A stretch of DNA of 64,000 nt from a virus (IMGVR_UViG_3300025018_000001); one strand, 5' to 3'; shown: positions 2,086-13,558, counted from the stretch's first letter. Translations and numbers: made by a program. The notes: generated by a model not told the origin, from the letters alone.

Positions 2086-2508
2086 ATGCACAAACCAAAT
2101 TTCAATGCTGGAGACCTTGTAGACCATAATGCTGTGTCTGCTATTATTAAGAATGATGCTGGTGAAGTACTAGTATTTTTTCATCATAAGTATCAGGAGT
2201 GGACAATACCTGTTGGTAAGGCTGAACAAGGTCAGACTGTTGAAGATGCTTTACGTATGGAAATTTCAGAAGAATGCGGTCTTGAACTTATCTCTTTCAA
2301 AAAGGATCTTATTAAGAAGTATGTCTACCCGCGTGAGAAAAAAGATATTAACGTGGAATTACACCAGTTTACTGTAGATAAATACTCTGGTATACCTCAA
2401 AACCTTGAACCTAAGAAGCATTCTAATATGCAGTTTATGTCTGTAAACGAGCTGCAAAAATTGGATAATAGGATGGATGTATTAGATTTATTTCTCTCTA
2501 CCCAGTAG
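2086..2508 (+). CDS. NUDIX hydrolase
   Basis: Nudix-box-like GKAEQGQTVEDALRMEISEECGL; WTIP before the box. Confidence 0.85.
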   Translation: MHKPNFNAGDLVDHNAVSAIIKNDAGEVLVFFHHKYQEWTIPVGKAEQGQTVEDALRMEISEECGLELISFKKDLIKKYVYPREKKDINVELHQFTVDKYSGIPQNLEPKKHSNMQFMSVNELQKLDNRMDVLDLFLSTQ

Positions 2509-11227: not shown

Positions 11228-11845
11228 ATGGAAGAATTAGAGCTACGTGTTAAAGATCTACAAGATCTTATGGCTAGTACAGATGATTTTTGTACTAAAG
11301 TATGTAAACTCTGCAAAGGTTCAGATGTACCATGTAAAGAAAGACTATTAGTTGCTTTAATAGATAAAGATGCTAAAATAGCAGGACTATCTTCATCTTA
11401 TCGCAAAGTAAAAATGGAATTGGAGGAATTAAAACGTACCAATGCAGCTAAATATGTACCTAAAAAGAAAAAGGGTCCTTATAATAAACTCAAAAAGTTC
11501 AATATAGCTGAAGTACTACCAAAAATAGGAGGGCATAAAAAATTTATAGTGACTCCTGAGGTGAGCGTCAACACATACAGTGTACGATTACGTACATTTA
11601 AACGGAGTACTATATGTGTTAGATGTGGTCTAAAAGGTACACACTTTTGGGCAGAAAGTAATCACAATATGAATAATTATCATCTAAATCTCTACGCAAC
11701 AAATGAACACGGCCATGAGGTGCTGATGACTAAAGATCATATTATACCTAAGTCTAAAGGTGGGGCGGACACATTGGCTAACATGCAGACAATGTGTACT
11801 AAATGTAACTTAAAGAAAGGCAACCAATTGGATGGCACCTGGTGA
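11228..11845 (+). CDS. HNH endonuclease domain protein
   Basis: CVRC...DHIIPKSKGGADTLANMQTMCTKCNLKKG. Confidence 0.9.
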   Translation: MEELELRVKDLQDLMASTDDFCTKVCKLCKGSDVPCKERLLVALIDKDAKIAGLSSSYRKVKMELEELKRTNAAKYVPKKKKGPYNKLKKFNIAEVLPKIGGHKKFIVTPEVSVNTYSVRLRTFKRSTICVRCGLKGTHFWAESNHNMNNYHLNLYATNEHGHEVLMTKDHIIPKSKGGADTLANMQTMCTKCNLKKGNQLDGTW

Positions 11846-12360
11846 ATAAAATAGCAAAAGCATTGGTCCAAGTCGATGAGCATGATTCCGAAATACTTAT
11901 ACGTCCATGTTTTCCAGTAAATATTAGGCTGATGAAAACAAACGTAGGGTATTTTAATGTAGTTGAACAAGCAATTAATCATATGAAAGGAGTAATTCAA
12001 ACTAAATTTTCCGACTACGCCGCTCTGCAAGGCATATCAGGCGCTAATGTGGGAATACCTTTCAATATTATCATTATATATTATGATGGTAAGCTATTGA
12101 CAATGTTAAATCCAGTGGTAATAAGTAAGTCAAAAGAAACAAAGACTGCTTTTTCAAATTGTGGGTCTATAAACTTGAAAGAGTCCATAAAAGTAACTAG
12201 ACATGCTTCAGTTACTGTACGTTATGTACCGTTTACGGATGCAAGTTGTCTGGAGTACGAGGAAAAAGTATTTAAGTCAGGCACTGTTCAACATGAAATT
12301 GAACATAATTTAGGTATTCTAATAACAACCAAAAAGGAAAACAAAAATGAATCCGTTTAG
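11842..12360 (+). CDS. def: Peptide deformylase-like protein (divergent)
   Basis: Three PDF motifs in order: GISGANVG, SNCGS (metal Cys), QHEIEH. Confidence 0.75.
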   Translation: MNKIAKALVQVDEHDSEILIRPCFPVNIRLMKTNVGYFNVVEQAINHMKGVIQTKFSDYAALQGISGANVGIPFNIIIIYYDGKLLTMLNPVVISKSKETKTAFSNCGSINLKESIKVTRHASVTVRYVPFTDASCLEYEEKVFKSGTVQHEIEHNLGILITTKKENKNESV

Positions 12361-12547: not shown

Positions 12548-13558
12548 ATGATTCGCTTATACTCTGGTAAATTTAATTTATTAATTGACGGGCAGTTTGG
12601 TAGCACTGGTAAAGGTTTACTCGCAAACTTTATTGGTGTATTTAACCATGTCGATATTGCCGTAAGTAATGCCAGCTCTAATGCGGGTCATACCTTTTAT
12701 GACGCTGATGGGAAGAAAATTATTGTGAAACATCTACCTGTCAGCGGCATAGTAAACAAACGCAGCTTAATTTATTTATGTGCTGGGTCTATAATTGATC
12801 TCGAAATTCTATTAAAAGAAATAGAGGAAAACAATATCGACCATGCCAGAATAGCTATACACCCACGAGCTGCAGTGATTTCCAAGAAGGACATTGAAGA
12901 AGAGAAGTTAAACAACAATGGTGTAAAGAAAATTGCATCCACAATGAGTGGGGTAGGTAGTGCATTAGTTAACAAAATAAATAGAGCCGCTAAGCTTGCT
13001 AAAGATATACCAGAACTTAGTAGATATATTTCAGAAGTTGACCTGCATTATTATATGCAACAAGGATGTACGGTACTAATGGAGGTACCTCAAGGTCTTG
13101 ACTTATCATTAAATCATGGCTTAGCTTATCCATACTGTACAAGTCGTGATATTACAATAGCAGCTGCTATGAATGACGCCGGTGTCCACCCTAAATGGTT
13201 AGGAAAGGTTGCTGTATCAATACGGACCTTTCCAATAAGGGTTGGTAATGTAGTCGAGAATGGTATTGAAGTTGGTTACTCAGGTCCATTTTATCCAGAT
13301 AGTGTTGAAACATCTTGGGAAAAATTAGGCTTACCAAAAGAATTTACCACTCGTACTAATCGTGTCAGAAGAGTTGCTACATTCTCACATATTCAGTATA
13401 AAAGAATGTTAGATTTACTATCGCCTGATTATGTATTCCTTAATTTCTGTAATTATTTAACAAGAAAAAAGATTGATGATATGTTAAAAATATTACCAGA
13501 GGTTACACATGTAGGTTTTGGTCCTACTATTAATGATATTCTACCTGTTAACAGGTAA
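12548..13558 (+). CDS. purZ: PurZ-like 2-amino-deoxyadenylosuccinate synthetase (PurA paralogue)
   Basis: DGQFGSTGKG (PurA Asp replaced by Ser19), NAGHT, QG..LSLNHG.YPYCTSRD, RTFPIRVGN, SGPFYPDS, FLNFCNY in place of TKLD. Confidence 0.8.
   Translation: MIRLYSGKFNLLIDGQFGSTGKGLLANFIGVFNHVDIAVSNASSNAGHTFYDADGKKIIVKHLPVSGIVNKRSLIYLCAGSIIDLEILLKEIEENNIDHARIAIHPRAAVISKKDIEEEKLNNNGVKKIASTMSGVGSALVNKINRAAKLAKDIPELSRYISEVDLHYYMQQGCTVLMEVPQGLDLSLNHGLAYPYCTSRDITIAAAMNDAGVHPKWLGKVAVSIRTFPIRVGNVVENGIEVGYSGPFYPDSVETSWEKLGLPKEFTTRTNRVRRVATFSHIQYKRMLDLLSPDYVFLNFCNYLTRKKIDDMLKILPEVTHVGFGPTINDILPVNR

What the first reader, a model, noticed from the sequence alone, without database searches (positions are those of the whole stretch)
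12548..13558. PurZ-type enzyme suggests a 2-aminoadenine (Z) genome in a large AT-rich phage
Seen: GSTGKG (Ser19 where PurA has the catalytic Asp), RTFPIRVGN, SGPFYPDS, EFTTRTNRVRR and FLNFCNY where PurA has TKLD. Established: these features characterise PurZ of cyanophage S-2L-type Z-genome phages, which makes the dZMP precursor from dGMP. Inference: this phage may replace A with Z. No DatZ (HD dATPase) or MazZ/DUF550 is recognisable nearby; the NUDIX (2086) or metallophosphoesterases might substitute, or the partners lie outside the window. An Arg is kept at the position equivalent to PurA R303, so the substrate could still be unusual.
Basis: partly seen in the sequence, partly recalled or inferred. 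Interest (0 to 1): 0.8.

Follow-up and report, generated by a model that had tools for sequence, protein, structure and literature searches.

The report
PurZ gene in a jumbo phage
A 264-kb uncultured aquifer phage carries an intact, divergent copy of PurZ, the enzyme small phages use to replace adenine with 2-aminoadenine (Z) in DNA, but none of the usual helper enzymes appear in the half of the genome I could read, so Z-DNA is plausible and unproven.

Summary
Its best solved relatives are PurZ of S-2L and phiVC8 (E about 1e-52; AlphaFold model TM 0.87). It carries the PurZ-diagnostic residues: Ser19 for PurA Asp13, Thr267, the insertion after RVG, and N299/F300/N302/Y303 where PurA has the guanine-binding TKLD. 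It branches inside the PurZ clade (SH-aLRT 100), apart from PurZ0 and PurA, and is under purifying selection.

The Z-genome inference is only partly supported. The closed genome is about 264 kb, and I read half of it (131.9 kb). That half holds no DatZ, MazZ, DUF550, DUF5664, dUTPase-like or NDT gene. Its four HD-domain proteins are a CCA-adding enzyme, an alarmone hydrolase and two PgpH-like enzymes. A MutT-like NUDIX is the only candidate substitute.

The same PurZ subclade also occurs as an ordinary chromosomal gene in Micavibrio and Bdellovibrionales assemblies, so clade membership alone does not prove Z-DNA.

All cultured PurZ/PurZ0 phages found have genomes of 83 kb or less, and no searchable paper links PurZ to jumbo phages. 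This scan had already noted PurZ in other huge phages (362 kb) on different DNA. Verdict: a new member of a known kind, of moderate interest.

The parts
12548..13558 (+). [quoted passage not shown]
   Evidence: ORF and translation. Family and structure hits: Pfam PF00709, PHROG 1211, NCBIfam NF038379 as top family, PDB 7odx/6fm1 at E about 1e-52. PurZ-type residues. Placement in the PurZ clade with SH-aLRT 100. AF2 pLDDT 92.7 with Foldseek top hits on PurZ structures. pN 0.117 against saturated pS versus the L016 copy.
2086..2508 (+). 140-aa MutT/MTH1-like NUDIX hydrolase. It is only a candidate (d)NTP pyrophosphohydrolase that might supply dGMP or remove dATP in place of MazZ.
   Evidence: Pfam NUDIX E 6.5e-15. 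The best NCBIfam models are 8-oxo-dGTP diphosphatase MutT and pyrimidine dNTP diphosphatase, all below their cut-offs. The best PDB hits are MutT/MTH1 proteins. No link to PurZ has been shown.

Best explanation
The ORF encodes a functional member of the PurZ clade.

It most likely condenses dGMP with aspartate, using ATP or dATP as phosphate donor, to give N6-succino-2-amino-2'-deoxyadenylate. Host PurB and nucleotide kinases would then convert this to dZTP, and the phage's own family-A polymerase would put Z opposite T. That would make the DNA of this ~264-kb aquifer phage at least partly Z-substituted.

Shown here: family, clade, active-site residues, fold, purifying selection and genomic setting.

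Inferred: substrate use, from residue identity with the crystallised PurZs; and any Z content of the DNA. How dATP is excluded is unknown. Candidates are PurZ's own dATP consumption, as shown for S-2L PurZ, a MutT-like NUDIX, or a helper in the unread half of the genome.

My odds: PurZ-type chemistry about 0.85; substantial Z in virion DNA about 0.5; complete A-to-Z replacement about 0.3.
For: Sequence: the best solved relatives are PurZ of S-2L and phiVC8 at E about 1e-52, against 3e-33 for the short archaeal PurA, 4e-27 for PurZ0 and 5e-10 for E. coli PurA.

Residues: S19 matches S-2L S23 and phiVC8 S14, where PurA has D13. F17 matches phiVC8 F12. T267 matches S-2L T273. C197, V232, P229, Y249, W257 and R146 are kept. 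N299/F300/N302/Y303 match the adenine-binding N305/F306/Q308/Y309 of S-2L, where all 7 PurA sequences and all 65 PurZ0-like sequences in the alignment keep the Asp of TKLD. The roles of these residues are taken from PMC8342488 and bioRxiv 10.1101/2025.10.22.683976. The PurZ-specific insertion after RVG is present (alignment).

Phylogeny: the PurZ clade has SH-aLRT 100. P0001 lies in the sister subclade to the S-2L/phiVC8/Acinetobacter group, together with cultured Ochrobactrum phage OH, which has an NTP-PPase, a YfbR-like HD protein and a Pol I next to its PurZ.

Fold: AF2 pLDDT 92.7, and Foldseek ranks PurZ structures first with TM 0.86-0.87.

Selection: pN 0.117 against pS 0.795.

Links to the nucleotide pool in relatives: a MazG directly upstream in L017; Cmk upstream and Ham1 downstream in L020; a dNMP kinase 1.5 kb upstream in L016; a dimeric-dUTPase-family protein and RNR about 9 kb away in L126.
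Against: No DatZ (YfbR-like/HD_3), MazZ/MazG, DUF550, DUF5664, dUTPase-like or NDT gene was found in 131.9 kb, which is 50% of the genome. This holds for Pfam annotation of called genes, pairwise searches and my own profiles in six frames.

In published Z phages these helpers lie within about 3 kb of purZ. Here the neighbours are an HNH endonuclease, a peptide deformylase, small membrane proteins and RtcB.

Members of the same subclade sit among housekeeping genes in Micavibrio and Bdellovibrionales assemblies that also have a normal PurA, so the clade is not confined to Z-DNA phages.

The phage encodes a Dam-like N6-adenine methyltransferase and avoids GATC (obs/exp 0.56). This suggests its adenine-containing sites still matter, though it is not decisive.

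NCBIfam's PurZ model is the top hit but scores 238 bits, below its cut-off of 300.

No chemistry exists for this uncultured phage.
Confidence: 0.6

Rival explanations
1. The enzyme has PurZ-type chemistry, but the phage does not build a Z genome. The enzyme would serve deoxypurine-pool management. It might drain dGMP and dATP, or feed a salvage or interconversion route like the one the chromosomal homologues of predatory bacteria may use. Z would then be absent or a minor component of virion DNA.
For: No dATP-removing helper was found in half of the genome. The same subclade is found in housekeeping context next to MazG, or to Cmk and Ham1, in cellular assemblies that also have PurA. A Dam-like methyltransferase and GATC avoidance imply ordinary adenine-site biology. 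Other jumbo-phage relatives (L126, L127, G004:C1) also lack canonical helpers near PurZ.
Against: No enzyme is known that uses dZMP or dSMP for anything other than dZTP. Once dZTP is made, polymerases incorporate it: the S-2L PrimPol takes both A and Z (PMC8065100 abstract). S-2L PurZ itself consumes dATP. Half of the genome is still unread.
Confidence: 0.27
2. It is an auxiliary copy of ordinary adenylosuccinate synthetase (PurA), making AMP from IMP and GTP to boost adenylate supply for an AT-rich genome.
For: It hits Pfam PF00709, and source databases annotate relatives as 'adenylosuccinate synthase'.
Against: The catalytic Asp13 is Ser, and the guanine-specifying Asp333 and Lys331 are Asn and Phe. 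It is 336 aa with the PurZ insertion. E. coli PurA scores only 5e-10. It branches outside the PurA clade, which has support 100.
Confidence: 0.03
3. It is a PurZ0-type enzyme, the GTP-dependent evolutionary intermediate, which works with Dut-like and NDT-like helpers.
For: It has Ser in the P-loop, as PurZ0 does. There is no DatZ or MazZ, as in PurZ0 phages.
Against: The P-loop is GSTGKG, not GSE[GA]KG. The base motif is NFCNY without the Asp that all 65 PurZ0-like sequences keep. It branches in the PurZ clade, not with Ghobes and Wayne. No Dut-like or NDT gene was found in 50% of the genome.
Confidence: 0.03

Closest known systems
PurZ of cyanophage S-2L (PDB 7ODX) and of Vibrio phage phiVC8 (PDB 6FM1/6FKO/6TNH, 'DgsS')
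   Same: The fold matches (TM 0.86-0.87) at 36-38% identity. Shared features are Ser in the P-loop, Thr267, the insertion after RVG, the adenine-type N-F-x-N/Q-Y motif (VFLNFCNYL is identical to phiVC8), and the dimer Arg146.
   Different: P0001 belongs to the sister subclade. It has A130 for Gly and R269 for Val. It sits in a 264-kb, 35% GC genome rather than one of 39-45 kb. It has no adjacent DatZ, MazZ or DpoZ (against 13-18).
PurZ of Ochrobactrum phage vB_OspP_OH (MT028492), the closest cultured phage protein
   Same: It lies in the same PurZ subclade (support 88) at 41% identity, with the same diagnostic motifs.
   Different: OH is a 41-kb podophage. Its PurZ is followed by an NTP pyrophosphohydrolase and a YfbR-like HD protein and preceded by Pol I. 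None of these is near P0001.
PurZ0 of Gordonia phages Archimedes and Ghobes and Arthrobacter phage Wayne (PDB 7VF6)
   Same: It is a short PurA-like enzyme with Ser in place of the catalytic Asp.
   Different: PurZ0 has GSEAKG and keeps the Asp of the guanine-binding motif. It scores only E 4e-27 and about 25-32% identity, forms a separate clade, and works with Dut-like and NDT helpers.
Uncultured PurZ-like proteins of large contigs and of Micavibrio/Bdellovibrionales assemblies
   Same: These are 47-87% identical to P0001 with the same GSTGKG and NF.NY motifs. Many sit on contigs of 90-282 kb.
   Different: They are not described in any paper I could find. Some are plainly chromosomal. Their function is untested.

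Membership tests
PurZ (succino-amino-deoxyadenylate synthase) | Ser replaces the catalytic Asp13 of PurA in the P-loop | tested here: met
   S19 in GSTGKG. This position is Ser in all 11 Z-cluster PurZs and Asp in all 7 PurAs of the alignment. PMC12884076 reports Ser in 100% of phage PurZ sequences.
PurZ (succino-amino-deoxyadenylate synthase) | Adenine-type NTP-base pocket (S-2L N305/F306/Q308, phiVC8 F295/N297/Y298) in place of PurA's guanine-binding (T/S)K.D | tested here: met
   N299, F300, N302 and Y303. The Asp is absent. Residue roles are from PMC8342488 and the metaGPA preprint.
PurZ (succino-amino-deoxyadenylate synthase) | PurZ-unique substrate contacts (S-2L T273, C204) and the insertion after RVG that presses Val241 towards C2' | tested here: met
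   T267, C197 and V232 are present, with a 12-residue insertion at 233-244.
PurZ (succino-amino-deoxyadenylate synthase) | Branches inside the PurZ clade, apart from PurZ0 and PurA | tested here: met
   IQ-TREE on 66 rows: PurZ clade SH-aLRT 100, PurA 100, and P0001 nested in starred sets of 3, 7 and 15 rows.
PurZ (succino-amino-deoxyadenylate synthase) | Passes the curated NCBIfam PurZ model (NF038379, cut-off 300 bits) | tested here: inconclusive
   It is the top-scoring family (238 bits, E 1e-70) but falls below the cut-off. The next family, the archaeal-type PurA model, scores 185 bits against a cut-off of 368. This is an annotation threshold and not a biochemical criterion.
PurZ (succino-amino-deoxyadenylate synthase) | Catalyses dGMP + Asp + (d)ATP to dSMP | not testable with these tools
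   Needs an enzyme assay.
Z-cluster system (DatZ + MazZ/DUF550 + PurZ, usually with DpoZ) | Helper genes lie within a few kb of purZ | tested here: not met
   Within 10 kb on each side there are only an HNH endonuclease, a peptide deformylase, RtcB, an ion channel and hypothetical genes. The preprint finds the helpers within 3 kb.
Z-cluster system (DatZ + MazZ/DUF550 + PurZ, usually with DpoZ) | A DatZ-type dATP triphosphohydrolase (Pfam YfbR-like/HD_3) somewhere in the genome | tested here: inconclusive
   None was found in 131.9 kb (50%). The four HD-domain proteins seen are a CCA-adding enzyme, a Mesh1/SpoT-like hydrolase and two PgpH-like enzymes. The other half was not readable.
Z-cluster system (DatZ + MazZ/DUF550 + PurZ, usually with DpoZ) | A MazZ, MazZ-2 or DUF550 (d)GTP/dATP pyrophosphohydrolase | tested here: inconclusive
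   None was found in 50% of the genome. A MutT-like NUDIX is present as a possible analogue.
Z-cluster system (DatZ + MazZ/DUF550 + PurZ, usually with DpoZ) | A DpoZ-type family-A polymerase | not tested
My walk stopped 5.8 kb short of it.
PurA (adenylosuccinate synthetase) | Catalytic Asp13 and guanine-specific Lys331/Asp333 | tested here: not met
   These positions are Ser19, Phe300 and Asn302.
PurZ0 | GSE[GA]KG P-loop, with the Asp of the NTP-base motif retained | tested here: not met
   P0001 has GSTGKG and NFCNY. All 65 PurZ0-like sequences keep the Asp.

The most novel reading that the evidence does not exclude
A large, undescribed PurZ lineage works without the DatZ/MazZ/DUF550 helpers. 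It is found in jumbo phages of aquifers and other habitats and, as a chromosomal gene, in predatory bacteria such as Micavibrio and Bdellovibrionales. Either these giant phages make Z-DNA by a different route of dATP exclusion (PurZ's own dATP use, a MutT-like NUDIX, or polymerase selectivity), or this lineage performs a deoxypurine conversion that is not tied to Z genomes at all.
Probability: 0.3. Interest if true: 0.75.

Novelty: new member of a known kind. Interest (0 to 1): 0.5.

Why it matters
Every PurZ or PurZ0 phage in the cultured-phage collection I searched has a genome of 83 kb or less. If this 264-kb, 35% GC phage really replaces about a third of its bases with Z, then Z-DNA extends to jumbo phages. 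It would also have to be made without the enzymes now thought necessary to keep dATP out, which would revise the minimal requirements for a Z genome.

The relatives matter beyond this phage. More than 2,000 uncultured homologues turned up, many closer to P0001 than any cultured PurZ. Some are ordinary chromosomal genes, which warns against reading 'PurZ present' as 'Z genome' in metagenome surveys.

Tried and rejected
1. Whole-genome search. No genome is held for the window, and the ENA record could not be used as a handle. I walked instead with 12 exact-protein look-ups and reached 50% of the genome. The polymerase arm was not reached.

2. IMG/VR scan with P0001: no relative found. Megablast of 4 kb against cultured phages: no match.

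3. The 173-aa HD protein just beyond the window as a DatZ candidate: rejected. It is Mesh1/SpoT-like (HD_4), whereas true DatZ proteins hit YfbR-like/HD_3.

4. The 240-aa and 233-aa HD proteins: the 240-aa protein matches PgpH-type Lmo1466 (4s1b, 2e-30). Neither is DatZ.

5. The 297-aa NUDIX as a MazZ analogue: rejected. It is an NMNAT-Nudix fusion next to NAMPT and PRPP synthetase, which is NAD salvage.

6. The small ORFs directly after PurZ in relatives (L126, L127, L025) as MazZ-like: not supported by Pfam or by my profiles.

7. The 263,784-bp contig of a 'Clostridium' MAG as a relative of this phage: it shares only PurZ (48%) and two weak hits, and it contains no helper homologue.

8. Palindrome statistics as a proxy for Z: GATC and CTAG are avoided, but the 147-enzyme survey shows that sites with few dZ are poorly protected, so the result does not discriminate.

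9. Sequencing runs: all holders are kept as contigs, so base chemistry cannot be seen and I did not lay reads. No RNA holder was listed.

10. The NAR 2026 sentence giving 'ATP and GTP, respectively' for PurZ0 and PurZ contradicts that paper's own introduction and the preprint. I therefore relied on the observed Asp/Asn difference and not on that sentence.

Full report
**The gene.** The window is 34-37% GC, and 97 of 107 called ORFs lie on the + strand. It matches Pfam Adenylsucc_synt (E 4e-27) and PHROG 1211 '2-aminooxy adenylosuccinate synthetase' (E 3e-61). Among solved structures, PurZ of S-2L (7odx, 9e-52) and PurZ of phiVC8 (6fm1/6fko, 2e-51) lead. The short PurA of Pyrococcus horikoshii follows at 3e-33, PurZ0 (7vf6) at 4e-27 and E. 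coli PurA at 5e-10. NCBIfam's PurZ model is the best family at 238 bits, below its curated cut-off of 300, so the protein is divergent.

**Diagnostic residues.** I took the substrate contacts named for S-2L PurZ (PMC8342488) and for phiVC8 PurZ (bioRxiv 10.1101/2025.10.22.683976) and mapped them through a 245-sequence alignment.
- S19 corresponds to S-2L S23 and phiVC8 S14, where PurA has D13.
- F17 corresponds to phiVC8 F12, and T267 to S-2L T273, where PurA has Gly.
- C197, V232, P229, Y249, W257 and the dimer Arg146 are all of the PurZ type.
- In the NTP-base pocket P0001 has N299, F300, N302 and Y303. These equal N305/F306/Q308/Y309 of S-2L. All 7 PurAs and all 65 PurZ0-like sequences keep the Asp of the guanine-binding motif there.
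- The PurZ-specific insertion after RVG is present.
It aligns with PurA R303 and phiVC8 K267, but Arg occurs at that position in 3 of 11 PurZs from canonical Z clusters, so it carries no weight.
- Two real differences are A130 (Gly in S-2L) and R269 (Val in the canonical PurZs).

**Fold and selection.** An AlphaFold2 model (pLDDT 92.7) finds the PurZ structures first (TM 0.86-0.87), then archaeal PurA, then PurZ0. Against the 82%-identical copy in L016, non-synonymous differences are 0.117 per site while synonymous sites are saturated (0.795). The gene is therefore maintained by selection.

**Phylogeny.** I built a 66-row IQ-TREE tree rooted on six canonical PurAs.
- All Ser-type enzymes separate from PurA with support 100.
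- The PurZ clade proper (46 rows) also has support 100. It excludes the PurZ0 proteins of Ghobes and Wayne and the many GSEGKG-type chromosomal copies.
- Inside it, subclade A (support 99) holds S-2L, phiVC8, an Acinetobacter phage and every genome locus that has DatZ, MazZ and DpoZ beside PurZ.
- P0001 lies in subclade B (support 88) with Ochrobactrum phage OH, the only cultured member. It sits within a well-supported group of 15 uncultured sequences.

**How widespread the lineage is.** A search of 5.8 billion proteins gave 2,192 hits at E<=1e-10. The top 120 are 54-100% identical to P0001 and lie on contigs of up to 282 kb. At the 50% clustering level, 483 clusters score below 1e-30, and more than 150 representatives score above the cultured PurZs. 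In the cultured-phage collection the best match is 41% identical, and no PurZ or PurZ0 phage among the 100 records listed exceeds 83 kb. I found no paper that links PurZ or diaminopurine to jumbo or huge phages. This scan had, however, already flagged PurZ in other huge phages (362 kb) on different DNA.

**The genome.**
- The exact protein is encoded on contigs of 264,359 and 264,194 bp from two samples, with different start points.
- My walk left one end of the first contig and re-entered at its other end. The amount of new sequence (67,845 unique 31-mers) equals the expected wrap-around distance (67.9 kb). The genome is therefore closed at about 264.3 kb.
- The phage is found in aquifer and cold-spring metagenomes.

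**The search for partners.** Published Z phages keep DatZ (Pfam YfbR-like/HD_3), MazZ, MazZ-2 or DUF550, and DpoZ within about 3 kb of purZ. PurZ0 phages use Dut-like, DUF5664 and NDT-like (DmtZ) enzymes instead. Here purZ is flanked by an HNH endonuclease, a peptide deformylase, a 63-aa ORF, two small membrane proteins and RtcB.

I used three searches: reference helpers from six cultured phages (phmmer), my own DatZ and MazZ profiles in six frames, and the precomputed Pfam labels of called genes. None found a helper in the window or in the next 67.9 kb, which together are 131.9 kb or 50% of the genome. As a positive control, the same references detected the full cluster in 7 of 80 genome loci.

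The HD-domain proteins that do exist are these:
- the HD domain of a CCA-adding enzyme;
- a Mesh1/SpoT-like alarmone hydrolase;
- two PgpH-like enzymes. The 240-aa one matches 4s1b at 2e-30.

A 297-aa NUDIX is an NMNAT fusion. It sits with NAMPT and PRPP synthetase, so it belongs to NAD salvage. The only enzyme with the right chemistry is the 140-aa NUDIX at 2086-2508. It most resembles MutT/MTH1-type dNTP pyrophosphohydrolases but scores below all curated cut-offs.

**A caution from relatives.** Scanning GTDB species genomes gave 555 relatives. Most have GSEGKG and group with PurZ0, including copies in complete chromosomes. The closest ones to P0001 (47-51% identity, GSTGKG, subclade B) include genes on a 1-Mb Micavibrio contig and a 610-kb Bdellovibrionales contig. 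Those genomes also have a normal PurA. There the PurZ gene sits among HflX, inositol monophosphatase, a HAD hydrolase, aminotransferase IV, ferrochelatase and a GT4 transferase, with no phage genes in the 8 kb on either side.

The immediate neighbours of PurZ in relatives are often nucleotide-pool enzymes:
- a tandem MazG in Micavibrio;
- cytidylate kinase and Ham1 in an alphaproteobacterial MAG;
- a T4-type dNMP kinase in L016;
- a dimeric-dUTPase-family protein and RNR in a 282-kb phage contig.

The subclade is therefore tied to deoxynucleotide metabolism, but membership does not by itself show a Z genome.

**Other indirect signals.** The phage encodes a Dam-like D12 N6-adenine methyltransferase (E 3.5e-51, DPPY motif), and GATC is depleted (obs/exp 0.56, z -7.7). 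This hints that adenine-containing sites are still under selection. It is weak evidence, because 47% of 147 tested restriction enzymes cut dZ-DNA and sites with few dZ are the least protected.

**Verdict.** The enzyme identification is sound. The protein is a PurZ-clade member with the full set of residues that specify dGMP and (d)ATP in the crystallised enzymes. A Z-substituted genome is the simplest consequence, but it is not demonstrated, and the usual means of excluding dATP is missing from the half of the genome I could read. I rate it a new member of a known kind, in a new setting (a jumbo phage with no adjacent Z cluster), with moderate interest.

Noticed in passing
L017:8007-9104 (Micavibrio MAG, 1-Mb contig) and L022:7983-9029 (Bdellovibrionales MAG, 610-kb contig): PurZ-clade genes (GSTGKG, NF.NY motif, 47-51% identical to P0001) sit among housekeeping genes in assemblies of predatory bacteria that also have a canonical PurA. 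In Micavibrio a tandem MazG lies directly upstream. This looks like a cellular use of PurZ-type chemistry, and I found no description of it.
   Followed up: partly
L028-L095 (for example L051 Terriglobus roseus DSM 18391, L035 Lacibacter sp. MH-610, L055 Pirellulaceae SH501): A large group of PurZ0-like genes (P-loop GSEGKG, with the Asp of the NTP motif kept) occurs in many bacterial chromosomes alongside a normal PurA. I did not determine whether they are prophage-borne.
   Followed up: no
window 34154-56408: A dense set of peptide and amide-bond enzymes: three COOH-NH2 amidoligases, two Peptidase_C26 glutamine amidotransferases, a GGACT cyclotransferase, a GATase_6 protein and a RimK-like ATP-grasp, followed by a GNAT. 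They surround a 1084-aa RNA-polymerase-like protein and a helicase.
   Followed up: no
L130:12804-15577 and L132:17816-18757 (about 12-28 kb beyond the window end): An NAD+ salvage module: an NMNAT-Nudix fusion, NAMPT and PRPP synthetase.
   Followed up: partly
L128:18945-19466, L130:10884-11606, L133:7811-8512: Three stand-alone HD hydrolases: a Mesh1/SpoT-like small alarmone hydrolase and two PgpH-like (c-di-AMP phosphodiesterase-type) proteins. They are probably erasers of host signalling nucleotides.
   Followed up: partly
L136:21210-22049 (about 66-67 kb beyond the window end); GATC counts on window plus 20 kb: A Dam-like D12 N6-adenine DNA methyltransferase (DPPY motif) is encoded, and GATC is strongly under-represented (obs/exp 0.56, z -7.7). 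CTAG is also depleted (0.66).
   Followed up: partly
G004:C1 (L112-L125), 263,784 bp, 24.6% GC, binned as 'uncultured Clostridium sp.': Another very large contig carries a subclade-B PurZ (48% identical) with no DatZ or MazZ homologue detectable by pairwise search. It shares almost nothing else with this phage. I did not check whether it is a phage.
   Followed up: partly
L016:4464-4988 (7.5-kb contig binned with an Arcobacter MAG from a sulfidic cave): The closest PurZ outside this phage species (82% identical) lies in a different neighbourhood, with an ADP-ribosylglycohydrolase, a T4 Rnl1-type RNA ligase and a T4-type dNMP kinase. The gene therefore appears to move between large phages. The binning hints at a Campylobacterota host, but that is weak.
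   Followed up: partly
window 11228-12360: An HNH endonuclease and a phage peptide deformylase lie directly upstream of purZ.
   Followed up: no
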